A DNA stretch of 64,000 nucleotides, taken from the IMG/VR virus record IMGVR_UViG_3300045988_184219; one strand, written 5' to 3'. Below the pieces are notes generated by a model. It was not told the origin of the DNA. It was given only the letters and a program-made list of their open reading frames with translations, and did no database searches. Shown one piece after another: positions 6,436 through 63,032 of the stretch. Source of the stretch: a virus. Positions within the stretch are counted from its first letter, which is position 1. Each line of letters starts with the position of its first letter. Made by a program: the position numbers and the translations under genes.

Positions 6436-7155
6436 GGAAAAAAGAAAACGCCCCGCGACAAGCACGGGACGCTTTTTTGTCCTACTCCTCGGATGCAACT
6501 CACGCAGCACCCTTCCTGTTTCACCGACTACTTACGCGGGTTGTCCGCGACCTTCATCTCCACAGGCGCAACTTCCCCCACAGCAGGACGTACGGGGTAC
6601 AAACGGCACTCGCTCCACCTCTAGCCACAGGATGCGAGTTATTATCGGCTTCTCGGGGCTCACGCGGCGGGGTCACAGGACACCCTCACCCACCAGTTTC
6701 GCTCGCCACACCATCCGCTAATTTATTCCACCGTGGTTAGCCGTCATGAGGTCTTTGCGACGTAATATTTTCTATGTATCATCGTAGTTTATGGAGATTG
6801 CGCTCCAAATTAGTCCGTCACATCGGACGTTTGCCCGCCATCATAATTGCTTCTCCTCTCTAGGTCTTTGAAAACTTTGTTCAAAGTAGGGCTGTTTCCC
6901 GCATATCCGAATTATCGCGGAGCCATTATATCACCCGCCGCACCCCTCCATCGGAGTGCGTCTAGCACGCGGGGATTTTAACATTGTTTAGGCGGCACAG
7001 GGGATGCAGGGGTCGATTCCTGCGTCCTTGTGAGGGATTTGCTATCAGGAGGCTTATCGTTCCTCGCGTGTGCGCCGCAACATCCGCAGCGCGGGGCGAG
7101 TGTCGTGTCCTCTCTGTTCGATCCGCCCACCAACTTCTCGTCGGTGTCCCTCTCG
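6436..7155 (-). ncRNA. candidate large (~720 nt) structured ncRNA, copy 1
   Basis: No credible ORF, high GC, own promoter box TTTATTATAGCAGG at 7161-7174, intrinsic terminator (cguccc gugcuugucgc ggggcg + U-tract) at 6440-6480; ~85% identical paralog at 36500..37232. Confidence 0.5.
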
Positions 7156-7374
7156 ATGGTTTTATTATAGCAGGTTCGAACGAGGATGTGGAGAGTTTTT
7201 GTTAAACCAAAGATTTTCTTTTTGAAAAACTTTGCGGGCGGGGCGTTTGATGCGTGGGAGATGTGGAACGCGACGAAAGATTTTTACTTTTGGTTTATCG
7301 AATCCAACTGAACTGACAAAATCAACTCAGATTTCCGACTCTCCCGATTCGAATTTCTGACAAAAACGACTACT

Positions 7375-7674: not shown

Positions 7675-7706
7675 GTTTCAATCCGCGCACCCGCGTAAGG
7701 TGCGAT
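7675..7706 (-). repeat. solitary CRISPR-like repeat unit (type I-C-like): minus strand ATCGCACCTTACGCGGGTGCGCGGATTGAAAC
   Basis: Close to the I-C repeat consensus GTCGCGCCCCGCACGGGCGCGTGGATTGAAAC, with hairpin plus GGATTGAAAC handle; no adjacent spacer or cas. Confidence 0.55.
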
Positions 7707-8044
7707 GGCAACACATAGCCAGATTCGCCAGTCCCAAGCACTCACCCATCCACTCAGTGTACAAAATCGACATTATTTTGAGAATCCGTTTCCACTTACG
7801 CATCCTTGCGTCCGTCCTCTCCGAGAGAAATGGTGCCGATTTTATGATCACTTGAGGTTCGCACTCGGACCGTTTACTTTGGCATATCTCACCGTCATTT
7901 GTGTTGCGGTTGTAAATTTTCGGTCGCCCCGCCCAACGACCTTCTTTTAGTCTATCGCGTCACCCAACCAAGCGACGGATTCGACCTTGCTAGACAATCA
8001 ATCGCCTCACCGCACCTTTCCTTTGGTCTATCAACAAAACATCA
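7707..8044 (-). other. conserved ~330-nt leader-like element abutting the CRISPR-like repeat (copy 1 of 3)
   Basis: Begins GGCAACACATAG; long near-identical blocks shared with 22093..22433 and 62271..62602. Confidence 0.5.
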
Positions 8045-8097
8045 ATTAAAAAAAAGTGTAGCACATTTTAAAAATATTTTTCTCCAAAAAACGAAAA

Positions 8098-21719: not shown

Positions 21720-22076
21720 TTACTTGCGATGGGAATGAGAGATTACCTCATCCAACATAATTACAAGCCAGTCAGGTTTGTTCGTCAGCCTATTGGTCAA
21801 GTGTTCAAGAGAGGCCACTTGTTGCGGGGAGGAAAGTGTGTGATGTTTAACAATCAGAGTTAGCCCACGAACGAGAGCTGTGAGACGTTCGTGGGGAGGC
21901 TTATGCGATTGGACGTTATTGATAAGTGTATCAATTTGCTCGTTGACAAGTTTTTGTTGTTCAACCTGCCAAGTCGCAACCTCTCGTTGAGCGTCAGCAA
22001 GATGACGGCTTTTGGATATGTTTGGGGTTTTCAAAGAGAACACCTTCTTTTTGGCGATGGGTTTCAATCCGCGCAC
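21720..22076 (-). CDS. doubtful ORF (118 aa, no ATG start, no SD), runs into the CRISPR-like repeat
   Basis: Only a GTG start inside the repeat; no cassette. Confidence 0.2.
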   Translation of the reverse strand: MRGLKPIAKKKVFSLKTPNISKSRHLADAQREVATWQVEQQKLVNEQIDTLINNVQSHKPPHERLTALVRGLTLIVKHHTLSSPQQVASLEHLTNRLTNKPDWLVIMLDEVISHSHRK

Positions 22077-22092
22077 CTACAATAGGTACGAT
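22061..22092 (-). repeat. solitary CRISPR-like repeat unit (type I-C-like): minus strand ATCGTACCTATTGTAGGTGCGCGGATTGAAAC
   Basis: Same GCGGATTGAAAC handle and a compensated hairpin as at 7675 and 62075-62270. Confidence 0.5.
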
Positions 22093-22433
22093 GGCAACAC
22101 ATAGAAAGATTCGCCCGTTCCGAGTGCCTTCCACTCCACACAGATCACAAAATCGACGTATTTTAGGGAATCTATTCCCACTATCGCATCCTTGCGACCC
22201 TTCTCGATGAGAGGAAACGAGTCGATTTTATGTTCACTTGAGGTTCACACTCAGACGTTTTCTTTGGCATATCCAACGATTATTTGTGTCGCGGTTGTAA
22301 ATTTTCGGTCGTCCGCGCAAAACGACCTTCTTTTGACCAAATTCACGTCACCCAACCAAACGCCGGGTTCGACCTTACCACACAATCAATCCTCTCACCA
22401 CACCTTTCCTTTAGGCTATCAACAAGACTTCAT
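22093..22433 (-). other. conserved ~330-nt leader-like element (copy 2 of 3)
   Basis: GGCAACACATAG ... CGCATCCTTGCGACC ... GCGGTTGTAAATTTTCGGTCG ... shared with 7707..8044 and 62271..62602. Confidence 0.5.
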
Positions 22434-22529
22434 TTACAGAAAGTGTAACACATATTAAAAATTATTGTTCTGCAAAAAGAAAAACACCTGTCAAGCAAGT
22501 GTTTTTCAAGGAAGAGATTTGAGAAAGAA

Positions 22530-23099: not shown

Positions 23100-23520
23100 A
23101 CCCACTCATTATTATAAAGGTGAGCTATCTTTCCGTTTCATTAATCAAGCTGTTTTATATCAACCAACCATCCTTTTCGTCTTTCCAAGTTCATCATACT
23201 GCTCCACCCAATTCTTCAAATGAGCATCCGCAACAGAGAGAGACACGGACGGATAGCGACGAATACAGTTGCCATTCTTATAATATCGCACTTGAACTCC
23301 CCACGACTCTCATCGCGGGATTCTCGGGTCGTTCGCAACTTAGACACCTTCTCACCGCAAATGAGACGTTGATCCAGTGCCCAGAGGTCGCGAAAAATTA
23401 CCGAGCTATCCCCGTCGTCCCAACGGTTCGGTAAGGCGAAAAGTTCGTTGATAAGCCAAAGGATTAGGCGGATTTGTCGCGAAACTTTTCATCGAGTTCT
23501 ACGAGGAGCCGAAGCCCTTC
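23100..23520 (-). ncRNA. candidate TnpB guide RNA (omega/reRNA) region: 3' end of tnpB plus downstream right end
   Basis: ~400 nt ORF-poor segment downstream of tnpB where IS605-family elements encode their guide RNA; not verified structurally. Confidence 0.3.
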
Positions 23521-24621
23521 GCAGAGAATATTCTGTGCCGCGTTGAGGTCGCGGTCGTGATGATGCCCACACTTCGGGCAGATCCACTCACGCACGCTGA
23601 GTTCCTTGACGGCGGGGTTTTTGAAGCCGCAATTTCCGCAGGTCTGCGAGGAGGCGTAGAACCTGTCCACAGTGAGGAGAACGCGTCCGCGCCAGAGAGA
23701 CTTGTATTCGAGCTGTCGTCTAAGTTCACCCCACGAGGAATCCGCGATGTGACGGGCGAGACAGTGATTCTTTATCATCCCGCTCACGTTGAGGTCTTCA
23801 ATGAAGATAACCCCGTACTTTTTTGTGACAAAGTTCGTTAATTTATGAAGGTAGTCCTCTCGTTGTGCCGCAATTTTTGCGTTCAGCCGTGCCACCTTGA
23901 CCCGAGCCTTCTCGCGACGCGCACTCGACTTTGATTTTCGGTCGAACGAGCGTTGCAGAAATTTCAGGCGATTTAAGGAGGTATTGAGCGGCTTGAGCGC
24001 GTCAAACTGCGTGCCATCGGAGAGGATTGCGAGGTCTTTGATGCCAAGGTCGATGCCGACAGGATCTTCATTGTGCTCCAACACAGGCGCAGGAACGTCG
24101 GTTGCGCAGATCGAAATGTAGTACCGCCCGTCTGGTTCGATACGCACGGTCGCACTGAGGATTCTGCCCTCTGGAATGAGGTTCTTCCCTCCGCGAATCC
24201 GCACCCTGCCGAGCTTCGGAAGCTTGATATGCGTCCCCTCAAACGCGATGTTGTTATTCGTGAAATTCGTCCGATAACTCTGATAGTTGTCGCGTTTGGA
24301 CTTGAAGCGTGGATAACCAAACTTCCTCTTGCGCGACGAGTTGACCGTTCCAAAGAAATTATCATAGGCTTTATCGAGATCGCGAAGGGCGTTCTGTAAC
24401 GCACATTTATCGGGTTCGAGGAGGAACGGGAGTTCACGTTTGAGGTCGGTCAGCCGTTTGCTACACGCGTTGTAACCGAGCGTTTTCTTCGTTTCCGCGT
24501 ATGTGTCGATTCGGAGTCGAAGAAAATAATTGTAAATAAATCGTTTACACCCGAACGTCTTTTTAATCAAGTCACGTTGCTTTGCGTTCGGGTAGGCACG
24601 GTACACGTACCCCTTTTCCAT
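23464..24621 (-). CDS. tnpB: IS200/IS605-family TnpB (RNA-guided RuvC nuclease, OrfB)
   Basis: RuvC-I GIDLGIKD, RuvC-II IFIEDLN, zinc finger CGNCG...CPKCG, RuvC-III RDLNAAQNI; 385 aa; no tnpA. Confidence 0.85.
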   Translation of the reverse strand: MEKGYVYRAYPNAKQRDLIKKTFGCKRFIYNYFLRLRIDTYAETKKTLGYNACSKRLTDLKRELPFLLEPDKCALQNALRDLDKAYDNFFGTVNSSRKRKFGYPRFKSKRDNYQSYRTNFTNNNIAFEGTHIKLPKLGRVRIRGGKNLIPEGRILSATVRIEPDGRYYISICATDVPAPVLEHNEDPVGIDLGIKDLAILSDGTQFDALKPLNTSLNRLKFLQRSFDRKSKSSARREKARVKVARLNAKIAAQREDYLHKLTNFVTKKYGVIFIEDLNVSGMIKNHCLARHIADSSWGELRRQLEYKSLWRGRVLLTVDRFYASSQTCGNCGFKNPAVKELSVREWICPKCGHHHDRDLNAAQNILCEGLRLLVELDEKFRDKSA

Positions 24622-36499: not shown

Positions 36500-37232
36500 T
36501 AAAAAATGAAAACGCCCTGCGACAAGCACAGGACGTTCTCTCGAACACTTTCCACACAATAAGTCACGGGATCATCCCCCTCGGGATTCAACGGCAACTC
36601 ATTGTACTGCAACCACCGATGTTCACACGGCTGGTATCATCATCCTCGCGCCCCACAACGAGGAAACCACAAGATTTTGGGGCAATATTTGACGGCACTC
36701 GCACCACCTCTAGCCACGCGTGATTTGCAGTTACGAGCGACTTGTCGGGACGTATCTTCGCGGCGGGGTCAACGGGTGTTATGCCCTCTCCCACCATCCA
36801 GTCCACCATCCACTCCTCTTGTGCGTGGTTAGCCGTCATGAGGTCTTTGCGACGTAATGTATGTTATCAGCCGTAGTTTAGGGAGATTGCACTCCGAATC
36901 AGTCTATCACATCGGACGTTTACCCGCCATCATGGTTGCTTCTCCTCTCTAGGTCTTTCAAGCTCTTTTTTCAAAGTAGGGCTGTTTCCCGCTTATCCGA
37001 ATTCTCGCGAAGCCCTTATATCACCCGCCGCACCCCACCATCGGAGTACGTCTAGCACGCGGGGATTTTAACATTGTTTAGGCGGTCGAGGTTGCTCGCG
37101 GAGGTCGATTTCCACGTCCTCGGGAGAGACTCTCAACAGGTGTCTAGCGTTCCTCATGTGCGCCGCTTTAGCTGCGCGGAGTTGCGTCAACCTGCCTGAG
37201 CCGCCTACCAACTTTTCGTCGGTGTCCCTCTC
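36500..37232 (-). ncRNA. candidate large (~730 nt) structured ncRNA, copy 2
   Basis: Paralog of 6436..7155: shared blocks GGTTAGCCGTCATGAGGTCTTTGCGACGTAAT and GTCTAGCACGCGGGGATTTTAACATTGTTTAGGCGG; promoter box 37238-37250; terminator 36510-36545. Confidence 0.5.
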
Positions 37233-37365
37233 GATGGTTTTATTATAGCAGGTTCAAACGAGAATGTGGAGAATTTTTGTTGAGTCGAAGGTTTTTCTTT
37301 TTCGAGAGAGGTGGGAGGTGTCGGGAACCAGTTTCTTTGGCTTATCCTATCCGACTTAACCGACT

Positions 37366-43476: not shown

Positions 43477-44823
43477 TCACGCGGACTCCCGACGAGGCGA
43501 GTCTGTTGGACGAGCAGCCAAACCAGCACAGGCGATCCTTGTCGGCGCTACCATAATCGGGCGTAGCACAACGCCCTCTATCCCGTCGGCAAACGCGTTC
43601 GGGACTACTTTTTTCACGATCTGCAACGCTCCGTTTACGTCCGCATTCACGCGTGTTCCGTCGTTTGAACGGAATAATCCTCGATGAATACGACGCTTTT
43701 TGTTGTAAAATTCGCGTGTCGGGGGCTCTCCGTCCAGAAATGATGTACCGCTCGTATAGCTTTCTTCTGTTACGACAACAGCTATACCATGTTCATACGC
43801 TTTGTACTCGATCATTTCTATCAATCGGGCGAACGGGAGTCCTACAAAATGCTGGTTCTCCTTCGCCGTGAACGGGGTGCGCTCCTTCCAGTCGCGGTTT
43901 AGACCAATGATAAGTGTCGGAATATTCTGTGCGACGAGGCGATCTACGATGAGGCGCGAGGTCTTGTGCAGGTAATCCTTGAGTTTTGCGTTCCTTTTGT
44001 CAATCAGGCGTTGGATTCTCCGCGTCACTTTCCTCCCATTGAGGTGCTCCGACATCTCACGGAGAGACGCCAAACGCTTGTTGTAGAACTGGTTGATCGA
44101 CTTCGGGATGCGACCGTTTACGATGATCGGAGCGTCCCCCGTGGAGAACGCCATCGTAACGAAGTTGTTTACGCCGAGGTCAATTCCTGCGTATCTCCCG
44201 TTGGGCTTTCTCTGAGGAACTTCCTTGATTCTGTAAACGATTTCAAGGGTGATGAACCCTCCGTGCGGGACAAATCGAACCTGTTGAAACGACTTTATTT
44301 CACGAGGGCTGTTAGTGTCCTCGCGGATGAACTGCGGCTCAACCGTGAACCCCTTGAAAACTTTTGGAAACACGATTTTTCCATCCCGAATTTTACACTC
44401 TTGACTCGTTAAAGTTAGAACGTGCTTTCCATCCTTCTTTAGAAAATGAGGCGGTTTCGGACGACCCTTATACTTTTCAGGGTGCTTTTTCCAATCTTTA
44501 AGTTCTTCCCAAAAACTTTTCCAGTCTGTCACGAGCAAGCGTAAATTCTGCTGTGCGCTCTGTGCCGTCGGCATGTTCCGATAGTCGGGAAAGTCCGTTT
44601 TCGACTTCAGGATTTTGTCAAGTTGTTCATAACTCGACTGTTTCTCGTGCGCGAAAAACTGTTGCCGAAGTAGATAATTCCCTTGATTATAAAGGTTTTT
44701 TGACATGTGACAAAACTCCGCGAGCATTTCATACGCGGGGTGAGTCTCCTTGATGATGTGTTGCTCCACGCGAACAAAGGGATCTTTCTTTTTCTTCGTT
44801 TTTGGCTTTTCTTCCGTTTTCAC
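43477..44823 (-). CDS. TnpB-derived protein lacking zinc finger and RuvC-II Glu (possible nuclease-dead, TldR-like)
   Basis: RuvC-I GIDLGVNN present, DYLHK block aligns with the intact TnpB, RuvC-II position reads IIGLN (no Glu), YTSGTSFLDG replaces the CxxC zinc finger, NADVNGALQI retained; ~200 aa N-terminal extension; standard cassette promoter at 44878-44900; only 67 nt to the next gene. Confidence 0.6.
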   Translation of the reverse strand: MKTEEKPKTKKKKDPFVRVEQHIIKETHPAYEMLAEFCHMSKNLYNQGNYLLRQQFFAHEKQSSYEQLDKILKSKTDFPDYRNMPTAQSAQQNLRLLVTDWKSFWEELKDWKKHPEKYKGRPKPPHFLKKDGKHVLTLTSQECKIRDGKIVFPKVFKGFTVEPQFIREDTNSPREIKSFQQVRFVPHGGFITLEIVYRIKEVPQRKPNGRYAGIDLGVNNFVTMAFSTGDAPIIVNGRIPKSINQFYNKRLASLREMSEHLNGRKVTRRIQRLIDKRNAKLKDYLHKTSRLIVDRLVAQNIPTLIIGLNRDWKERTPFTAKENQHFVGLPFARLIEMIEYKAYEHGIAVVVTEESYTSGTSFLDGEPPTREFYNKKRRIHRGLFRSNDGTRVNADVNGALQIVKKVVPNAFADGIEGVVLRPIMVAPTRIACAGLAARPTDSPRRESA

Positions 44824-46849: not shown

Positions 46850-48121
46850 TTAAACAGGTAGCAATCTTCTTCCTCCATACGCTTTTAACTGTGGATAGAC
46901 AGGCTTAGACAAGAAACAATTTTTCAAACGCCACTCAGACTCGCCGTCTTTGAGTACCAAACGGGTTCGACCAGATAAAAACGTCTCAGAATTATATCCC
47001 TCTACAGAAGGGAGCCCCTCAATAAATAACTCAAAATCGGAACCTTTAAACTTCTTATCCCGAACCAAGGAACAAAACAAAAGTTCAGCCTCCACATAAT
47101 AGTGCGTAGAAAGAAGATCCTTATTACGTTCAAAAAACTCAGCAGAGAATGCACGCCACCCATCACAATTCCGCAAACGGTGAACCGTTGCTTGACTGCA
47201 TAAAGTTCCGTAACTCAACCCAAAATCTTTTGCAAAGACAGGGAGCTCCATTACGGGAATTTTACGACCATCCTCATGTATCAACACCCAACGGCAAGAA
47301 CGCTCTTTTTTCTTCTTTGTAATGCGTTTAACAAAGTGACAAGATTCAAGCCCCCACTCAGAGCCTTTTTCTTTCAAGGAAAGTTTAATCTTTTTACGGA
47401 AGAAGGAGTCATCATATCCTTCGATTTTACGAAAATCACGAATAAAAGCACCAACCTGCGACCATTCGGGAGAACGATTTTTCATCCTGCGCCATAAAGC
47501 GTAAACAGTAGAATAAAGGTATCGGCGCAAACGACCATTTTTCCAAGCCTTAAAGTCTTCTGGATATTCTTTATTTTGATAGATAGAATCATCAAGACCA
47601 ATTTCCCCAAAATCTTCGTAAAGCTCATAAAGCCTGTAAACGAAATCCATACCGACATTCAGTGGATTTTTCATTCGCGTATATATCAAGTTACTGTCAA
47701 TATAATCCATAACGATTGCAAGACGTTCTTCTTTTGTCGTTTCTATCGCATCTCTCGCCTGTTTGCGTGGAAAATCTTGAAAACTACTTCGCTTCATATA
47801 ACGAACCCATGCACGAAGGGTTTCTACACGAGAAATATGATGTTTTTTGCACACATCACTCAAACTCATGCCAGAAAGGACATCCTCTACCGCACACTTT
47901 TTCTCATCAAAAGAAAATCGGGCGCGTGAAGGATAGAGAAATTCCTCATCGCTCTCACACAACTCATAAATCTTAATCCAAGACTGAATTTGTTGATAAC
48001 GAATTCCATGTTCTTGAGCAAAAGAAGATAAAGATTGTTTTCTTTTCTTTGCTTCGAGGATAATTTTTAACTTGTACTCATTAGAAACGCGCATCCTCTT
48101 TTTTTGAACTTTATCAGACAT
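46850..48121 (-). CDS. HTH-domain protein with transposase-OrfA-like N-terminus and large unknown C-terminal region (423 aa)
   Basis: Two HTH-like segments (LSSFAQEHGIRYQQIQSWIK; LSDVCKKHHISRVETLRAWVR); SD AGAGGTG before ATG 48121. Confidence 0.5.
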   Translation of the reverse strand: MSDKVQKKRMRVSNEYKLKIILEAKKRKQSLSSFAQEHGIRYQQIQSWIKIYELCESDEEFLYPSRARFSFDEKKCAVEDVLSGMSLSDVCKKHHISRVETLRAWVRYMKRSSFQDFPRKQARDAIETTKEERLAIVMDYIDSNLIYTRMKNPLNVGMDFVYRLYELYEDFGEIGLDDSIYQNKEYPEDFKAWKNGRLRRYLYSTVYALWRRMKNRSPEWSQVGAFIRDFRKIEGYDDSFFRKKIKLSLKEKGSEWGLESCHFVKRITKKKKERSCRWVLIHEDGRKIPVMELPVFAKDFGLSYGTLCSQATVHRLRNCDGWRAFSAEFFERNKDLLSTHYYVEAELLFCSLVRDKKFKGSDFELFIEGLPSVEGYNSETFLSGRTRLVLKDGESEWRLKNCFLSKPVYPQLKAYGGRRLLPV

Positions 48122-48141
48122 AATCAATACACCTCTGAACC

Positions 48142-48402
48142 CTACCGCCGCCACCCACTGACGACAATAGCACCATCCTCCACATCCACAATATACCCAT
48201 GCGCCAAGAGCGTCTTTCGGATAGTCGGAATGTTTTTTGACGCAACACCGACTCGCACAGAGTCTTTGGGTGTACTTAGAATCAGACCCGCTATCTGGTT
48301 GAGGATTTTCTGCCGTTTGTCTTGTGTCTGCACCTGCTTAATATGCGGAAAATAGGGTTTCTGCGAGGTGTTGCTTTTGTTTGCTTTTCCAGATTCAGTC
48401 AT
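48142..48402 (-). CDS. hypothetical small protein (86 aa), upstream partner of 46850..48121
   Basis: SD AGGAAGGAAAAC before ATG; 20-nt gap to the downstream gene. Confidence 0.5.
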   Translation of the reverse strand: MTESGKANKSNTSQKPYFPHIKQVQTQDKRQKILNQIAGLILSTPKDSVRVGVASKNIPTIRKTLLAHGYIVDVEDGAIVVSGWRR

Positions 48403-49514: not shown

Positions 49515-49659
49515 TTTTCTCAACCTTTCCTTTTCTGCGTTAATCAACTCACTTGATATGTTTATTATATAACACTTTCGCCCATAATAAAGAGAAAATC
49601 GGCACATATCGTAAGTTTTTTCCTTTAACAATACGTGCCAACCTAGACCGTTTCCTTGG

Positions 49660-52459: not shown

Positions 52460-54193
52460 TCAAAACAACACATTGTTGTCAGAAACGAAATCTTCTTTCT
52501 TCTTCCCACCATTCCCTTTCTTCTTCGTTCTCACAGCCCCCAACGCAGGAGAAAGGAACTCTACCATCTTATCCAGAATCTTATCGCCTTGCTCCACATC
52601 AACACCTTCAATCGCCTCTTTGGTCGCTCCCGATTTAATATCAATCAACGCGGCAATCTCAACATCAATCGTATCTTTTGCGAGTAAGTACCACACATTA
52701 ACCGCATTACGTTGTCCAATACGGTATACACGATCTTCTGCCTGTTGCATATCAGCGGGGGTCCAGCCAAGCTCCAAAAACGCCACATTAGATGCCGCCG
52801 TAAGCGTAATTCCAGTAGAAGCAGCCTTTAGACCAAGAACCGCAAGCCTTACGTTCTCATCGTTTTGGAACTTCTCAACCACTCGTTGACGCTCCTCAGC
52901 GGAGGTTTCACCGGTGATGGACACAGCATCAGGGAACGCTTCGCAAAGCGATTCAATGACCTCAAGATGTGTCGCAAAGACAACGAGTTTTTCTCCACTT
53001 TCGAGAAACGTCGAAACCCACTCTTTCGCATCATCGAGCTTCTGCTTCGCGACGAGATTTTTTAAGACCTCAATCCGTACAAGCATCTCAGCCTTCATCG
53101 ACTTCTTAATCTCACGCTCGTCCTTTTGGAGATTCTCGCGGAGATAATCTTCAAGCTGTTTCTTTGCCTTCTCGTATTCTTTCATTTGAGGTTTTGTGAG
53201 TTCAAAGAACACCTGCGAGCGTGTTTTGTCAGGAAGGTCTTGAAGGACGGCTTTCTTGTCATGACGGATGTAACATAGCTCACGAAGCCGCGTGTTGAGT
53301 TCTTTGAGGTTCGCACTTCCAGAGATGTCCCATCCCCACGGCTTACGCTTTTTCGCACAATAACGATCGGTAAACCGATTCCACCCACCAAACTCATCGA
53401 ATCGAGAGATAACACGAAGCTGTTCAATGAGTTCTGCGGGACGGGAAAGGAGGGGTGTGCCTGAGAGGAGGAGAACGTAGTCGATTTCTTTGGCAAACGC
53501 CTTAACAATTTTAGTGCGTTTAGCGGTTCCGTTTTTGACATAGTGCGATTCGTCCAAAATCATAAAGCGGAACTTGATTTCGACAAGGTTCTTCGAGAGC
53601 TTCGTAAAAAGATCGTATGTAAGGACGACAACATCTGCGTTCACCGCATCGTTGACACTCTTTGCGTCCTTAATCACAACCACACGCACATCGTTCGGAA
53701 GCCACCTTTCCGCCTCTACCGCCCAATTATACTTAACAACCGCAGGGCAGATAATAATGGCAGGATAGTGCTGTGTCGCGTGGAGTGTTGCAAGAGCCTG
53801 TACCGTTTTACCGAGTCCCATCTCGTCGGCGAAAAAGAGGTGCTTCTTTTCGAGCGCATACGCAACAGACTCTCTCTGGAAGGGCATAAGTGTGCCATTG
53901 AGTGTGTCAAGGCGTTCCATCATTTTATTGATAGACGCGTTAGAGATTTTTGCTCGTTTTTCGGGTTTATCGAGCGTACGGGATTTGTTTATGTATTTCG
54001 AGAGTCCGAACTGTTTGTATGCGGTAGGAAAGACTTTTTTAATATTTTCTAGGACGGTGAGGGAGAACTCGTACTGCCAGCACTTGAGGTCGGGATTCCA
54101 ACGGCGTGTCGGGATGGACTTACAAGCGTCTTTATCAACATACTCCCCGTAGATACGGATTCCGAGTTTTGTAACTTCGATGTTTTTTATCAT
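52460..54193 (-). CDS. SNF2-family DNA/RNA helicase (577 aa)
   Basis: Motif I DEMGLGKT, motif II DESHYVKN, LLSGTP, helicase-C block GITLTAASNVAFLELGWTPADMQQAEDRVYRIGQ. Confidence 0.85.
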   Translation of the reverse strand: MIKNIEVTKLGIRIYGEYVDKDACKSIPTRRWNPDLKCWQYEFSLTVLENIKKVFPTAYKQFGLSKYINKSRTLDKPEKRAKISNASINKMMERLDTLNGTLMPFQRESVAYALEKKHLFFADEMGLGKTVQALATLHATQHYPAIIICPAVVKYNWAVEAERWLPNDVRVVVIKDAKSVNDAVNADVVVLTYDLFTKLSKNLVEIKFRFMILDESHYVKNGTAKRTKIVKAFAKEIDYVLLLSGTPLLSRPAELIEQLRVISRFDEFGGWNRFTDRYCAKKRKPWGWDISGSANLKELNTRLRELCYIRHDKKAVLQDLPDKTRSQVFFELTKPQMKEYEKAKKQLEDYLRENLQKDEREIKKSMKAEMLVRIEVLKNLVAKQKLDDAKEWVSTFLESGEKLVVFATHLEVIESLCEAFPDAVSITGETSAEERQRVVEKFQNDENVRLAVLGLKAASTGITLTAASNVAFLELGWTPADMQQAEDRVYRIGQRNAVNVWYLLAKDTIDVEIAALIDIKSGATKEAIEGVDVEQGDKILDKMVEFLSPALGAVRTKKKGNGGKKKEDFVSDNNVLF

Positions 54194-55638: not shown

Positions 55639-55896
55639 AACTTCCTTTCACATCAAGATGTTGGATGTATTTATTATATAATTTTTTCGAGAACTGGTTT
55701 TAAAAAAAAGAAAAAAACAATGAAAACCGTTGATCTTTTTGCAAATTTTTGTTCTAACCAACACTCATTTCGCTTTCAAGGTTTCAATCCGCACCCTCCA
55801 AATAAAGAGCGATAACAACATTCAGACTTGTCAAACATAAAACTAACAGAACTTAAAACAAAAGCGACAACCTAGAAAGGTCGCCGCCAATGTAAC

Positions 55897-57148: not shown

Positions 57149-57324
57149 TTGAGTCCTTCCTTTCTGTGCGGGGAGAGTGCTTCGTTCAACTCATCTTGCA
57201 TATTTATTATATAACTTTTTAGATGAGCCCAAATGGAAAACGGAGCGGACGGGAGATTTTCTTTTTGCCGTCACGCCCCCGATCTCTCAGGACATCTCCT
57301 TTGGTTTATTCTCTTAACAACTCA

Positions 57325-57945
57325 CTAATTCCGCGCAGGAAGATCGTAGACAAGAGAACCATCCGCATCAAACAGATACCCCAATCCATCCTCGATCCAA
57401 GACATAATCGCACCATCCGTGTAGTATTCATCAATCATCTCAGATAGAGCCACATTTTCAGAGCGAACATACTTCTGCAACTCAACGAGAATATCCGTCT
57501 CAATTCGCCCGACCTCAATCTCGTCACCACCAAGAGCAACGACAGCGACCATTTCGCGGTTGTAATCCTGACCAACAACACCGACAATACTCGTCACATT
57601 GAGGTAATCATAGACAACATCCAAACCGAGCTCCTTTAGGAGATCCCACACAGAGTCGGGAGTATGTGCGGAAACAACCATTCTCTCAATGCGATAATTC
57701 GGAGTTCCATCGGGAGCATAACGATCAACCGATTCATCCATCGTACCGAGGCAGAGTGAGAAATCAACACCACAATCGGCAACAAGAAAGCCTTCTTTGA
57801 GGCGACGAACGAGATCGGGGTAGACGTAACCGTGGTAGAGGTACTTGTTCTTTCCACTGCGGAACGATTCAATGACCTCCCGCCGCACAGCGGGAGAGAG
57901 TACGCCGAACTTGATAGGGTTGGAGATGCGTTTGATTTCTGTCAT
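57325..57945 (-). CDS. paralog family C-like protein (206 aa; start at MTEIKRISN)
   Basis: SD AGAAAGGAAAATCAAC before ATG 57945; C-term WIEDGLGYLFDADGSLVYDL. Confidence 0.6.
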   Translation of the reverse strand: MTEIKRISNPIKFGVLSPAVRREVIESFRSGKNKYLYHGYVYPDLVRRLKEGFLVADCGVDFSLCLGTMDESVDRYAPDGTPNYRIERMVVSAHTPDSVWDLLKELGLDVVYDYLNVTSIVGVVGQDYNREMVAVVALGGDEIEVGRIETDILVELQKYVRSENVALSEMIDEYYTDGAIMSWIEDGLGYLFDADGSLVYDLPARN

Positions 57946-58073
57946 GTTGATTTTCCTTTCTGATGTCATTAACTAACTTTGTGTATTTATTATATAACTT
58001 TATTATGTTTTGTGTGGAGTGTTTTCGATAGACCAAAGGAAAAGCGCACCCAATTTGAGTGCGCCATTTTTCC

Positions 58074-58652: not shown

Positions 58653-58867
58653 AATTTTTCTTCCTTTCTTTTCAACAACTCTTGATGTATTTATTATATA
58701 ACTTTTCTTAGAAGGATGAGCGTATTTTCAGTAGGGAAAGTTTTTTTTGAAAAGAAATGTTGTCTGAGATGTGTCCTTTAGTCTATTCGCTCAAACCTTT
58801 CCGACAAAAGCGACTAATCCGACTCAGATTTCCGACTCATCCGACTTTCTCGACAAAACCGACTACT

Positions 58868-61013: not shown

Positions 61014-61481
61014 TTAAGCCACTAATGCGACACTCGCGCACTGTACGCAAGCGCGAAGAAAACGGTCAGCCTCAACGAGTCCCATACTCTCCTGAGAGAT
61101 GATAAATCCATTGAGAGCAAAGACAACTTCAACTCGTTTCCCCGTAACGTGCAACAGCACATCACTCACATCAACCATCTCTGTGGTAGAACGGTCGATT
61201 CGGACGGAGTAAGAGGGATAGGGCTTAGTTTGAGCAGAAGGATAGTGTTCGACGATCTGAATAAAATTCTGGTAGACCGACGTGACACTCCACTCATTCT
61301 TCTCATCCGCAACGACCTCAGAGATGGTTTTGTAGACAGTATGATTTTGAAGAGTTCCGCCGATGTCGCCATTATAGAAAGGCTTATGTGTCTTATTGTC
61401 AGGCGTTCCGTGCCAACCGTAGATGTGGGTTGCGCCGTTGGTCTTAGCGAGTGTGCCGAGGGTTTTCTGGATGATGTTCAT
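61014..61481 (-). CDS. hypothetical protein (155 aa; start at MNIIQKTLG)
   Basis: SD GAAAGGAGAAAAACA before ATG 61481. Confidence 0.55.
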   Translation of the reverse strand: MNIIQKTLGTLAKTNGATHIYGWHGTPDNKTHKPFYNGDIGGTLQNHTVYKTISEVVADEKNEWSVTSVYQNFIQIVEHYPSAQTKPYPSYSVRIDRSTTEMVDVSDVLLHVTGKRVEVVFALNGFIISQESMGLVEADRFLRACVQCASVALVA

Positions 61482-61947: not shown

Positions 61948-62074
61948 TTTTTTCTATCCTTTCTGTGAGAGATCTTTTAACAACTCTTGATAGATTTATT
62001 ATATAGCTTTTTACTAGACCAAAAGAGAAAAACGACACGCGAACAAGATTTTGTTTCTTGTAGGTGTGTCGTTT

Positions 62075-62270
62075 GTTTCAATCCGCGCACTCCATACAGA
62101 GTGCGATTTTGCGCTCAATGGCTTTATTGTCTCTCAGGTTTCAATCCGCGCACCCACGAAGGGTGCGATGGGCATAATTTCAACCCACACTACCTATACG
62201 GGTAGTGTTCTCTTTACACTGAGCACAATAGAATCGGGTTTCAATCCGCACGCCCTATACGGGGCGTGAT
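62075..62270 (-). CRISPR. mini CRISPR-like array, type I-C-like repeats: R1 62075-62107, spacer 62108-62137 (30 nt), R2 62138-62169, degenerate repeat ~62178-62207, spacer ~62208-62237, R3 62238-62270 (leader-proximal)
   Basis: Minus-strand repeats ATCGCACTCTGTATGGAGTGCGCGGATTGAAAC / ATCGCACCCTTCGTGGGTGCGCGGATTGAAAC / ATCACGCCCCGTATAGGGCGTGCGGATTGAAAC; constant GCGGATTGAAAC handle, hairpin stems kept by compensatory changes; no cas genes in the window. Confidence 0.55.
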
Positions 62271-62602
62271 GGCAACACATAGCAAAATTAACCAAATCCG
62301 CGCACTCACTACTCCACTCACCCATCAAAATCGACGTAATTTAGGAAATCCATTCCCGATCACGCATCCTTGCGTCGATCCTCTCCGAGAGAAACGTGTC
62401 GATTTTATGTTCGTTTAGGATTCGCACTAAAACTGTCCTTTGGCTAATCCAACCGTCATTTTTGTGTTGCGGTTGCAAGATTTCGGTCGCCACCGCCAAA
62501 CGACCTTCTTTTGGTCAAATTCACGTCGCCCAACCAAGCGACGGGTTCGACCTTGCTAGACAATCAACGGTCTCACCGAACCTTTCCCATTGGTCTATTA
62601 AC
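62271..62602 (-). other. conserved ~330-nt leader-like element (copy 3 of 3) adjacent to the mini-array
   Basis: GGCAACACATAG ... CGCATCCTTGCGTCGATCCTCTCCGAGAGAAA ... GCGGTTGCAAGATTTCGGTCGCC ... shared with copies at 7707 and 22093. Confidence 0.5.
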
Positions 62603-62702
62603 AAAACATCATTTACAGAGAGTGTAGCACAGATTCAAAAGAGTTTCCTGCAAAAAAGAAAAACCAACACATGATTTTTAAAATATGTGTTGGTTCTCGA
62701 CA

Positions 62703-63032
62703 TCAATCCGAAAGAGCAATCTTGAGGACGGAAACTGTCAGGGTCTCAAGGCTGATGAAGTGGTTGTATACCTCGTGGTATCCAGCATCATGCCCAGACT
62801 CCCACGCTTCGGCGAAAACTTCGTCGAAGATGGCGCGACCTCTCTCCATGCCAGCGAACTCGGAGTTCTTAAACACCAATGTCTTAAACTCCTCGTAGAC
62901 CTCACCAAGCCTACGGTTGTAGTCCCGATGAACGCCCGTAATCCCTTCGGTTGGAATGAGGCTTTTGTCCATATGGATAGTCCCAGCCTTAACCTCAAGC
63001 ACTCTCACCTCATCATAGATGTCTTTCTTCAT
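62703..63032 (-). CDS. hypothetical protein (109 aa)
   Basis: SD GAAAGGAGCG before ATG 63032. Confidence 0.55.
   Translation of the reverse strand: MKKDIYDEVRVLEVKAGTIHMDKSLIPTEGITGVHRDYNRRLGEVYEEFKTLVFKNSEFAGMERGRAIFDEVFAEAWESGHDAGYHEVYNHFISLETLTVSVLKIALSD

What the first reader, a model, noticed from the sequence alone, without database searches (positions are those of the whole stretch)
62075..62602. Cas-less mini CRISPR-like array with type I-C-like repeats and a conserved leader-like element
Three full repeats and one degenerate repeat share the invariant 3' handle GCGGATTGAAAC and a hairpin (minus strand ATCGCAC..GTGCG). They closely resemble the type I-C consensus GTCGCGCCCCGCACGGGCGCGTGGATTGAAAC. 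They are separated by ~30-nt and ~28-nt spacer-like segments and abut a ~330-nt conserved element on the leader side. There are no cas genes within 64 kb. The repeats differ in their loops while the stems compensate, which is unusual for a working chromosomal array. This fits virus- or MGE-borne mini-arrays that exploit a host type I-C system, for example to target competing elements, or an array in decay.
Basis: partly seen in the sequence, partly recalled or inferred. Interest (0 to 1): 0.9.

Follow-up and report, generated by a model that had tools for sequence, protein, structure and literature searches.

The report
Cas-less type I-C mini-CRISPR array
A giant phage-like element from the human mouth carries small CRISPR arrays and lone repeats with their own leader but no cas genes nearby. 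The spacers of this element family match each other's genes, so it is most likely a bacterial example of mobile elements borrowing the host's CRISPR machinery to fight close relatives.

Summary
On the minus strand, 62075-62631 is one transcription unit. It runs from a conserved extended -10 box through a ~340-nt leader, repeat Ra, a 28-nt spacer, degenerate repeat Rb, a 7-nt linker, repeat Rc, a 30-nt spacer and repeat Rd to a hairpin terminator.

The repeats are type I-C-like. Metagenomic arrays with 32-nt repeats ending in the same 12 bases sit beside cas5d, csd1, cas7, cas4 and cas1. The closest of these repeats is 30/32 identical to a relative's solitary repeat. The leader carries the motif GCGAACCYCAAG found about 170 nt upstream of genuine arrays with this repeat ending.

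The window holds two more leader-plus-single-repeat copies and one leaderless repeat. None of its 89 ORFs is a Cas protein.

Relatives were found on human-microbiome contigs of up to 406 kb, at least one from saliva. They carry zero to three spacers at the same locus. Seven of 24 unique spacers match related elements, flanked by TTC or CTC. Three relatives' spacers hit this window. The window's 30-nt spacer matches the neighbouring gene in relatives at 26-28/30, and its own copy at 26/30.

This is a new member of a known kind: element-borne mini-arrays used in conflicts between elements. Host use and RNA processing are inferred, not shown.

The parts
62621..62631 (-). Putative extended -10 promoter box (TGTGCTACACT) of the leader-array transcript
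   Evidence: It is conserved with small variations at the 5' end of the leader copies aligned. It lies just downstream of the terminator hairpin of the upstream gene (I7). The consensus sigma-70 scan did not call it, so promoter activity is inferred.
62271..62620 (-). Leader: a ~340-nt non-coding element, homologous to type I-C CRISPR leaders
   Evidence: There are three copies in the window and 12 copies in all with relatives, about 80% identical. No ORF is conserved, and indels are not multiples of three. Local hairpins are conserved but covariation is weak.
62415..62425 (-). Leader motif GCGAATCCTAA, a variant of GCGAACCYCAAG
   Evidence: The motif lies at -155 to -159 from the first repeat in three of the four element leaders tested by pattern (two in the window, one in L003). 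The fourth (22237-22248) has the variant GTGAACCTCAAG. It lies at -158 to -184 in 13 of 48 unrelated metagenomic leaders, including arrays beside I-C cas genes.
62238..62270 (-). Repeat Ra (ATCACGCCCCGTATAGGGCGTGCGGATTGAAAC), leader-proximal
   Evidence: It folds as a 7-bp stem with an 11-nt 3' tail, -12.8 kcal/mol.
62210..62237 (-). Spacer A (CCGATTCTATTGTGCTCAGTGTAAAGAG, 28 nt)
   Evidence: It has no match in the window, in relatives or in IMG/VR. Its target is unknown.
62177..62209 (-). Degenerate repeat Rb (AACACTACCCGTATAGGTAGTGTGGGTTGAAAT)
   Evidence: The stem is kept through compensatory changes relative to Ra (ACGCCC/GGGCGT to ACTACC/GGTAGT). The handle carries three substitutions.
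62170..62176 (-). 7-nt linker (TATGCCC) between Rb and Rc, probably the remnant of a lost spacer
   Evidence: Read directly from the sequence. The origin is inferred.
62138..62169 (-). Repeat Rc (ATCGCACCCTTCGTGGGTGCGCGGATTGAAAC)
   Evidence: It is identical to a repeat in relative L229. It folds at -13.6 kcal/mol.
62108..62137 (-). Spacer B (CTGAGAGACAATAAAGCCATTGAGCGCAAA, 30 nt)
   Evidence: It matches the 155-aa gene of relatives at 28/30 (L003), 27/30 (L219) and 26/30 (L229). It matches the window's own copy at 26/30. The 5' flank is always CTC.
62075..62107 (-). Terminal repeat Rd (ATCGCACTCTGTATGGAGTGCGCGGATTGAAAC)
   Evidence: Its 3' flank is the same as that of the solitary repeat in relative L003, so the window's array is an expansion of the same locus.
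62012..62079 (-). Hairpin terminator directly after the array
   Evidence: Inverted repeat I2. The RNA folds at -19 kcal/mol, z = -4.2, and is followed by a U-rich run. The same hairpin follows the array in most relatives (L003, L220, L221, L225, L227, L229-L233); L219 lacks it.
61092..61121 (+). The window's own protospacer-like site for spacer B, inside gene 61014-61481(-)
   Evidence: 26/30 match, with mismatches at spacer positions 9, 10, 16 and 25. Positions 1-8 are intact and the flank is CTC.
7675..8065 (-). Second copy: promoter box, leader and one solitary repeat (7675-7706)
   Evidence: (D15, D16).
22061..22460 (-). Third copy: leader and one solitary repeat (22061-22092)
55781..55813 (-). 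Leaderless solitary repeat (ATCGCTCTTTATTTGGAGGGTGCGGATTGAAAC)
   Evidence: It is conserved at the orthologous place in L219. Its hairpin is weaker, -6.6 kcal/mol.
57321..57355 (-). Site in the window matched by a spacer of relative L225 (34/35, flank TTC)
   Evidence: The same spacer matches L003 at 35/35. L225's own orthologous site matches only 24/35, with seed mismatches.
62870..62904 (+). Site in the window matched by a spacer of relative L220 (30/35; TTC lies 1 nt from the match)
   Evidence: It lies in gene 62703-63032(-), immediately upstream of the array.
54031..54058 (-). Site in the window matched by a 28-nt spacer of relative L229 (27/28, flank CTC)
   Evidence: It lies inside the SNF2 helicase gene 52460-54193(-).

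Best explanation
The locus is a Cas-less, leader-bearing type I-C mini-CRISPR array on a very large phage-like mobile element from a human-associated, probably oral, microbiome. Its relatives sit on contigs of up to 406 kb. The proposed mechanism has three steps. First, the leader promoter drives one transcript that ends at the hairpin terminator. Second, the host's type I-C Cas5c cuts at the base of each repeat hairpin. This gives two crRNAs, each with an 11-nt 5' handle, a 28- or 30-nt spacer and a 3' hairpin. Third, these crRNAs load into the host's Cascade (Cas5c, Cas8c, Cas7) and direct it, with Cas3, against closely related elements that enter the same cell. New spacers are written into the element's own leader-repeat junctions by the host's Cas1-Cas2-Cas4. 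The three extra solitary repeats, two of them with leaders, are either empty arrays ready for acquisition or repeat decoys. Shown here: the anatomy, the repeat and leader homology, the spacer turnover, the spacer-target matches and their TTC/CTC flanks. Inferred: transcription, processing, loading into host Cas proteins and interference.
For: Repeat class. Arrays with 32-33-nt repeats ending GCGGATTGAAAC and a period of 65-68 nt lie next to Cas5d, Csd1/Cas8c, Cas7, Cas4 and Cas1 (L214) or Cas5d, Csd1 and Cas7 (L121). The repeat of L150, which follows cas1, is 30/32 identical to the solitary repeat of relative L003.

Leader. The motif GCGAACCYCAAG sits at -155 to -159 in the element's leaders and at -158 to -184 in 13 of 48 unrelated metagenomic leaders.

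Hairpin under selection. 96.9% of cells pair, 5 of 7 pairs change on both sides, and 0 of 500 shuffles reach the covariation score. In Rb only the hairpin is kept, and the hairpin is the part needed as the 3' end of the first crRNA.

Discrete RNA gene. A conserved promoter box and a terminator hairpin bound the unit.

Turnover. The orthologous locus holds 0 spacers (L003), 1 (L227, L219), 2 (window, L220, L221, L225) or 3 (L229). Some leader-proximal repeats are identical, as expected after recent acquisition. Other arrays in relatives have at least 7 identical repeats.

Targets. 7 of 24 unique spacers match related elements within only about 230 kb of available relative sequence. Among them are 35/35 and 33/34 matches flanked by TTC and two flanked by CTC. 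In the clearest case the carrier's own orthologous site has diverged to 24/35. Three relatives' spacers hit this window.

No Cas protein was found among the 89 window ORFs or among the called genes of the relatives' loci.
Against: Spacer A matches nothing available.

Spacer B has no perfect target. It also matches the window's own gene at 26/30, with positions 1-8 intact and the same CTC flank, so avoidance of self-targeting is not obvious.

The window's spacers are 28 and 30 nt, while the family's usual length is 33-35 nt. The four repeats are not identical and one is degenerate. A simple recently active array would not look like this.

One relative's spacer matches its own contig over 34 nt.

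The host and its I-C system are unidentified. None of the sampled metagenomic arrays targets these elements.

Only part of each ~400-kb genome was seen, so an element-encoded cas operon elsewhere is not excluded.
Confidence: 0.72

Rival explanations
1. RNA anti-CRISPR (Racr-type). The solitary repeats, and perhaps the mini-array, are repeat mimics. Their transcripts bind host Cas5c and Cas7 and tie them up in non-functional complexes, protecting the element from the host's I-C immunity.
For: Three solitary repeats in 64 kb have conserved hairpins and handles, and two of them have their own promoter. A type I-C Racr (RacrIC1) has been validated experimentally (PMC10651486). This reading can hold alongside the main explanation.
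Against: Racrs are described as short units directly downstream of a promoter. Here about 340 nt of leader carrying a CRISPR-leader motif lies in between. The same leader-repeat units are filled with spacers of normal length, flanked by TTC, in relatives. That fits empty arrays better than dedicated decoys. No known acr gene was recognised next to them.
Confidence: 0.3
2. Regulatory crRNA-like RNAs (Cracr/CreR-type). The short spacers guide host Cascade to bind without cutting. The target would be a host cas or toxin promoter, silencing immunity, or the element's own neighbouring gene.
For: The spacers are about 6 nt shorter than the family norm, at 28 and 30 nt against 33-35. One repeat is degenerate and the layout is two stacked repeat-spacer-repeat units. 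Spacer B is partly complementary (26/30) to the element's own adjacent gene. Viral two-spacer I-C 'Cracr arrays' and short spacers are described in preprint 10.1101/2024.10.29.618823.
Against: No host cas promoter is available to test against spacer A. Spacer B matches a coding region 80-110 nt from a gene's 3' end, not a promoter. It matches relatives better than self. Another 28-nt spacer in a relative matches the window at 27/28, which looks like ordinary targeting.
Confidence: 0.15
3. Decaying relic. An array captured from a host or once active is now eroding and has no function.
For: Rb has a degenerate handle, one spacer is reduced to 7 nt, the spacers are short, the repeats are not identical, and neither spacer has a perfect target.
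Against: Decay does not preserve stems through compensatory double changes. It does not keep a promoter box, leader and terminator at about 80% identity across 12 copies. The locus is evidently live in relatives.
Confidence: 0.12
4. Sink for host spacer acquisition. The many leader-repeat units on a multicopy replicating element draw the host's Cas1-Cas2-Cas4 integration events away from the host array. The spacers seen would then be scars of such events.
For: There are several leader-plus-one-repeat units per genome, and the leader motif shared with genuine arrays is retained. One relative's spacer is identical over 34 nt to its own contig and lies next to a TTC, as expected if it was taken from the element's own DNA. 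Two extra 5' bases would disarm it.
Against: Most matched spacers hit relatives. In the clearest case the carrier's own site has diverged. Hairpin conservation and the terminator argue that the RNA product matters. The idea has no experimental precedent that I found.
Confidence: 0.08

Closest known systems
Virus-borne mini-CRISPR arrays of Sulfolobales viruses SPV1 and SPV2 (Medvedeva et al. 2019, PMC6858448)
   Same: These arrays hold 1-2 spacers and have no cas genes. A promoter-containing leader similar to host leaders precedes them. They sit at the same genomic position in related viruses but carry different spacers. The spacers hit close relatives, often near the array. The carrier's own site is mutated. 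Stand-alone repeats occur as well. Each of these points was seen here.
   Different: Those are ~20-kb archaeal viruses with type I-A/III-type hosts. This is a bacterial element of about 400 kb with type I-C repeats. Here the solitary repeats do have leaders, whereas in SPV they do not. The window's repeats are not identical, and its own site for spacer B has diverged only weakly.
Mini-arrays and solitary repeat units in bacteriophages and prophages (the comparative genomic survey cited in PMC6858448, which I take to be Faure et al. 2019)
   Same: They are Cas-less repeat-spacer-repeat units on bacterial viruses. Some spacers hit adjacent genes of closely related viruses but not the carrier.
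   Different: Those phage mini-arrays were reported to lack leader regions, and recombination with host arrays was proposed as their origin (PMC6858448). Here a conserved leader with a host-type motif is present, and the spacers have TTC flanks. That points to canonical acquisition.
RNA anti-CRISPRs (Racrs), including RacrIC1 (Camara-Wilpert et al. 2023, PMC10651486)
   Same: They are solitary CRISPR-repeat mimics on viruses, with a conserved hairpin and a promoter. The type I-C case was validated.
   Different: Racrs carry no spacer or leader and act by sequestering Cas proteins. Here the same units are spacer-bearing arrays in relatives.
Viral Cracr arrays (Liu et al., bioRxiv 10.1101/2024.10.29.618823)
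   Same: They are stacked crRNA-like units on phages, with degenerate repeats and shortened spacers. Two-spacer type I-C examples exist.
   Different: Cracr spacers match host cas or creT promoters. No such target could be tested here, and spacer B matches a gene of related elements.
CRISPR arrays of huge phages (Al-Shayeb et al. 2020; recalled from memory, not read here)
   Same: Very large phage genomes carry arrays, some without adaptation genes, with spacers against competing phages.
   Different: Many of those phages encode their own Cas effectors. None was found in the parts of these elements that I could read.

Membership tests
Type I-C CRISPR repeat | A 32-33-nt repeat with a 6-8-bp GC-rich stem-loop followed by an 11-nt 3' tail ending ATTGAAAC, which is the Cas5c substrate | tested here: met
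   All window repeats fold this way. The family-wide structure count gives 96.9% pairing.
Type I-C CRISPR repeat | Near-identity to repeats of arrays that lie beside type I-C signature genes (cas8c/csd1, cas5d, cas7/csd2) | tested here: met
   L214 and L121 arrays have the same handle, stem layout and period, and sit beside Csd1, Cas5d and Cas7 (L214 also Cas4 and Cas1). L150's repeat is 30/32 identical to L003's.
Type I-C CRISPR repeat | A match to a curated repeat family model | tested here: inconclusive
   Rfam gives only sub-threshold hits, to CRISPR-DR9 (19.9 bits against a cut-off of 45) and DR7, on the correct strand. CRISPRmap was not available.
Functional CRISPR array | Spacers of the subtype's usual length (33-36 nt) between identical repeats | tested here: not met
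   The window's spacers are 28 and 30 nt, with a 7-nt remnant, and all four repeats differ. Several relatives' arrays do meet this feature.
Functional CRISPR array | A leader with conserved motifs upstream of the first repeat | tested here: met
   The motif GCGAACCYCAAG lies at a distance comparable to that in genuine arrays. The leader occurs in 12 copies.
Functional CRISPR array | Protospacers flanked by the subtype's PAM (TTC for I-C; the PAM identity is recalled from the literature) | tested here: met
   Of six independent spacer-target pairs, two have TTC adjacent, two have TTC displaced by 1-2 nt and two have CTC. The window's own spacer B has CTC, not TTC.
Functional CRISPR array | Processed crRNAs and interference | not testable with these tools
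   This needs small-RNA sequencing and interference assays.
Element-borne mini-array for conflicts between elements (Medvedeva 2019 type) | No cas genes on the element | tested here: inconclusive
   No Cas protein was found in the 64-kb window, in the ten longest of 126 ORFs listed from relatives, or among the called genes of loci L219-L233. The rest of the ~400-kb genomes was not seen.
Element-borne mini-array for conflicts between elements (Medvedeva 2019 type) | Spacers match close relatives, and the carrier's own site is mutated or absent | tested here: met
   This is met for the family. For the window it is only weakly met: spacer B matches relatives at 26-28/30 and self at 26/30.
Element-borne mini-array for conflicts between elements (Medvedeva 2019 type) | Same locus, different spacers in related elements (turnover) | tested here: met
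   The orthologous locus holds 0-3 different spacers across L003, L219, L220, L221, L225, L227, L229 and the window.
Racr (RNA anti-CRISPR) | A solitary repeat directly behind a promoter, with no spacer, often beside acr genes | tested here: inconclusive
   Solitary repeats are present at 7675, 22061 and 55781. Two of them lie behind a 340-nt leader rather than directly behind a promoter. Neighbouring proteins have no recognisable family or solved relative.
Cracr / CreR-like regulatory RNA | [quoted passage not shown] | not testable with these tools
   The host genome is unknown, and no scan of the genome collection remained.

The most novel reading that the evidence does not exclude
The most novel reading not excluded concerns the short-spacer units of this family: 28-30 nt, flanked by CTC, with non-identical repeats. 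Under this reading they are not interference guides. They would be regulatory guides that build a Cascade one Cas7 subunit shorter, which binds without recruiting Cas3. They would silence a gene shared by relatives and by the element itself, or a host defence promoter. The leader-plus-single-repeat units would double as sinks for the host's spacer-acquisition machinery. Together this would be a Cas-less 'CRISPR toolkit' on a giant bacterial element that writes, reads and jams the host's type I-C system.
Probability: 0.12. Interest if true: 0.8.

Novelty: new member of a known kind. Interest (0 to 1): 0.55.

Why it matters
Cas-less mini-arrays with leaders, used by viruses against their own relatives, are documented in detail mainly for small archaeal viruses. 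The bacterial phage examples surveyed earlier were reported to lack leaders.

This locus, with its relatives, would be a bacterial counterpart in a human-associated, probably oral, microbiome. It is a family of elements of about 400 kb with several leader-bearing type I-C arrays per genome. The arrays show visible spacer turnover, PAM-flanked hits on each other and apparently empty 'landing pads'.

It offers a natural system for asking whether mobile elements can recruit a host's adaptation machinery to write memory into their own genomes. It also offers a set of divergent but functional-looking I-C repeats, which could be useful for building recombination-resistant arrays.

The identity and anatomy of this family of giant elements is itself little described. 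Nearly all its genes are ORFans, and each is preceded by the same 13-nt promoter motif.

Tried and rejected
Searches that gave nothing useful:
- Nucleotide searches of GenBank phages and PLSDB plasmids gave nothing.
- tblastn with the SNF2 helicase found only distant phage and plasmid helicases. The best was a 484-kb uncultured phage at 40% identity, which shares nothing else with the window.
- My first scan of the genome collection used a mis-specified pattern. The second found one unrelated rumen contig.
- The exact-protein look-up of the helicase found nothing.
- An attempt to detect an element-encoded I-C Cas7 found only a Parabacteroides-type locus and a saturated hit list. It was uninformative.
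- None of the 120 sampled metagenomic arrays carries a spacer against these elements, so no host was identified.
- Neither window spacer has an exact target in IMG/VR, even when every sixth base is freed.
- The neighbouring proteins have no solved relatives.

Ideas rejected:
- Integron attC sites or a cassette array: the repeats are CRISPR-type and the genes have their own promoters.
- Inocle elements: those have 24-32% GC against 44% here.
- A protein-coding leader: the long antisense open stretches are not kept in frame among copies.
- A TnpB guide RNA: the leader copies are not adjacent to the TnpB genes.
Full report
**Observation**

Read on the minus strand, the same strand as almost all genes in the window, the locus runs as follows:
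- a conserved box TGTGCTACACT (62621-62631);
- a non-coding stretch of about 340 nt (62271-62620);
- repeat Ra (62238-62270);
- a 28-nt spacer A (62210-62237);
- repeat Rb (62177-62209), with an intact stem but a degenerate tail (GTGGGTTGAAAT);
- a 7-nt linker (62170-62176);
- repeat Rc (62138-62169);
- a 30-nt spacer B (62108-62137);
- repeat Rd (62075-62107);
- a long hairpin followed by a U-rich run (62012-62079; -19 kcal/mol, z = -4.2).

Each repeat folds into a 7-8-bp stem with an 11-nt single-stranded tail. The repeat motif is enriched in the window: 7 matches against 1.1 expected, with no shuffle reaching 7. Three of the extra copies are solitary repeats at 7675, 22061 and 55781. The first two are preceded by the same ~370-nt element, so leader plus first repeat occurs three times at 72-83% identity.

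**The surroundings**

The window is unusual. About 90 short genes lie on one strand. Nearly all lack any Pfam family. About 30 intergenic regions carry the same motif (minus strand GTTATATAATAAA).

The recognisable proteins are an SNF2 helicase, a C5 DNA methyltransferase, an SPFH protein, an IS-type transposase and two TnpB-like proteins. No Cas protein is present. There are no tRNAs and no Rfam hits above threshold.

A 145-kb IMG/VR contig from a Human Microbiome Project sample is 77-93% identical to many parts of the window. It encodes a tRNA cluster. Homologues of the 155-aa protein next to the array lie on contigs of 317, 396 and 406 kb. The 406-kb contig comes from a human saliva long-read assembly. 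The source is therefore a very large phage-like element from a human-associated, probably oral, microbiome. It is not an Inocle, because those have 24-32% GC against 44% here. Whether it is a true phage was not settled.

**Is the repeat type I-C?**

A metagenome scan for two copies of GCGGATTGAAAC at array spacing returned 120 real arrays. Those with 32-33-nt repeats and a 65-68-nt period have the same stem-tail layout. L214 lies beside Cas5d, Csd1/Cas8c, Cas7, Cas4 and Cas1. L121 lies beside Cas5d, Csd1 and Cas7. The repeat of L150 follows cas1 and a probable cas2. It is GTCGCACCCCGCACGGGTGCGCGGATTGAAAC, 30/32 identical to the solitary repeat of relative L003. Rfam's CRISPR-DR models give only sub-threshold hits on the correct strand.

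**Is the flank a leader?**

Thirteen of 48 metagenomic leaders, from unrelated contigs, carry GCGAACCYCAAG at -158 to -184 from the first repeat. These include arrays next to I-C cas genes. Three of the four element leaders tested by pattern carry the same motif at -155 to -159, and the fourth has the variant GTGAACCTCAAG.

The further host motifs (GGTTCGCG at about -140 and -65) are not clearly kept. The leader has no conserved reading frame. Its copies differ by indels that are not multiples of three, and the long antisense open stretches fall in different frames. Several local hairpins are conserved, but covariation support is weak.

**Selection on the repeats**

Twenty-eight distinct repeats from the window and its relatives align without difficulty. 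For the 7-bp stem, 96.9% of cells pair, and five of seven pairs show changes on both sides in 20 cells. No shuffle reaches the observed covariation score, and sliding the partner destroys the signal.

In Rb the stem differs from Ra at two positions on each side and still pairs, while its tail has decayed. This fits selection on Rb only as the 3' hairpin of the first crRNA.

**Comparison of the same locus in relatives**

The locus is bounded by the same leader and, in most relatives, the same terminator hairpin. Its content varies:
- L003: one repeat and no spacer.
- L227: one spacer.
- L220, L221 and L225: two spacers. The two leader-proximal repeats of L220 and all three repeats of L221 are identical.
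- L229: three spacers.
- L219: a leaderless version with a promoter, a bare handle, a 34-nt spacer and a repeat directly before the next gene's ribosome-binding site.

Relatives also carry other arrays, one with at least seven identical repeats. Most spacers are 33-35 nt. The locus is therefore live in this family, and the window's version is an expansion of the single-repeat state.

**What the spacers match**

Of 24 unique spacers, seven match related elements within the roughly 230 kb of relative sequence I could fetch.

| Spacer | Match | 5' flank |
|---|---|---|
| L225, 35 nt | 35/35 to L003; 34/35 to window 57321-57355 | TTC |
| L229, 34 nt | 33/34 to L219 | TTC |
| L220, 35 nt | 30/35 to window 62870-62904, in the gene just upstream of the window's array | TTC, one base away |
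| L229, 28 nt | 27/28 to window 54031-54058 | CTC |
| Window spacer B, 30 nt | 28/30 (L003), 27/30 (L219), 26/30 (L229) in the 155-aa gene; 26/30 to the window's own copy (61092-61121) | CTC |

L225's own orthologous site matches its spacer at only 24/35, with mismatches in the first eight positions. In the window's own copy, positions 1-8 match spacer B. TTC is the type I-C PAM as I recall it from the literature. YTC directly adjacent in four of six independent pairs is far more than chance would give.

Targets lie close to the arrays. Medvedeva et al. noted the same for their archaeal viruses.

One case does not fit. A 36-nt spacer of the IMG/VR relative matches its own contig perfectly over 34 nt next to a TTC. 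Two extra bases at the 5' end of the spacer would put the PAM and the seed out of register.

**Interpretation**

This is an element-borne, Cas-less type I-C mini-array whose RNAs use the host's Cas5c, Cascade and Cas3 against related elements. Spacers are written by the host's adaptation proteins at the element's own leader-repeat junctions. The solitary leader-repeat units then look like empty arrays. The anatomy, homology, turnover, matches and flanks are shown here. Transcription, processing, loading and interference are inferred.

The window's own array is an atypical member: short spacers, non-identical repeats, a 7-nt remnant, no perfect target and only weak divergence of its own site. 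Three rivals keep some weight:
- repeat decoys of the Racr type, which could coexist with the main reading (PMC10651486);
- regulatory crRNA-like guides of the Cracr type, which are described with short spacers and stacked I-C units (preprint 10.1101/2024.10.29.618823);
- partial decay.

A sink for host spacer acquisition is a more speculative possibility.

**Comparison with what is known, and novelty**

The closest match is the SPV1/SPV2 mini-array system of Sulfolobales viruses (PMC6858448). It shares the leader, the 1-2 spacers, the same locus with different spacers, targeting of close relatives near the array, and self-avoidance by mutation.

The differences are the domain of life, the CRISPR subtype, the size of the element, leaders on the solitary repeats, and repeat divergence. 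That paper states that the bacteriophage mini-arrays known at the time lacked leaders. A leader-bearing bacterial case with PAM-flanked hits between relatives is therefore a useful addition, but not a new principle. I class it as a new member of a known kind, of moderate interest.

**Limits**

The host was not identified. Only parts of the ~400-kb genomes were read, so 'Cas-less' holds for the window and the fetched loci only. Spacer A has no known target. The PAM identity and the tolerance for short spacers rest on recalled literature, not on tests made here.

Noticed in passing
window, about 30 sites, e.g. 61985-62007, 58680-58702, 49551-49573: A highly conserved promoter-like motif (minus strand GTTATATAATAAA, followed a few bases later by ATCAAGAGTTGTT) precedes about 30 of the roughly 90 short genes, always in the same orientation. 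It has no clear -35 element. This suggests a dedicated early-gene promoter class or an element-specific sigma factor or RNA polymerase.
   Followed up: partly
window, e.g. 62584-62602, 8017-8035, 58026-58041, 62014-62030: The motif GATAGACCAAAGGAAA and its reverse complement occur about 23 times in both orientations (10-mer core TAGACCAAAG counted). In the cases looked at they flank gene cassettes as inverted repeats, upstream of the promoter motif and after the stop codon. The motif also opens each leader. Its function is unknown; an operator or a recombination site are possibilities.
   Followed up: no
L023:4170-4310, L063:2010-2146, L063:4870-5003, L088:3790-3929, L231:4694: Relatives carry at least five copies of a different ~130-nt element. 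It has its own TGTTATACT box and ends in CTCGTCTCTATYAAWTGTCRTTGACGCGGATTGAAAC. That is the I-C handle preceded by only a 3-bp mini-hairpin. It is absent from the window. It may be a second kind of repeat mimic.
   Followed up: partly
L088:9388-9423 versus L023:8570-8603 (same IMG/VR contig): A spacer matches its own contig perfectly over 34 nt, next to a TTC. The spacer has two extra 5' bases (CG) that shift the PAM and the seed out of register. It could be a disarmed self-derived spacer or a chimeric assembly.
   Followed up: partly
L219:5880-6000: In one relative the leader is deleted. A promoter, a bare handle (GCGAATTGAAAT), a 34-nt spacer and a repeat sit directly in the 5' untranslated region of the 155-aa gene, with the ATG 22 nt after the repeat. 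Cas5c cleavage would therefore cut that mRNA's leader.
   Followed up: no
window 23464-24621(-), 43477-44823(-); L003:360-1574; L063:7240-8409; L223; L225: TnpB-like genes (OrfB_IS605 plus the Cas12f1-like TNB domain) are frequent in this element family, with two in the window. There is also an IS-type transposase at 46850-48154(-).
   Followed up: no
window 6875-6995 and 36965-37085; 7136-7173 and 37214-37251: A 121-nt stretch is duplicated at 94% identity 30 kb apart (D20), with further similarity alongside it. It looks like a recent internal duplication or a small mobile sequence.
   Followed up: no
L229:4346-4373 (also L230-L233): One 28-nt 'spacer' (GCAAGAAAAAATGTTACACTTATTTTGA) contains the leader's promoter-box sequence (TGTTACACT). 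It may be an internal promoter rather than an acquired spacer.
   Followed up: no
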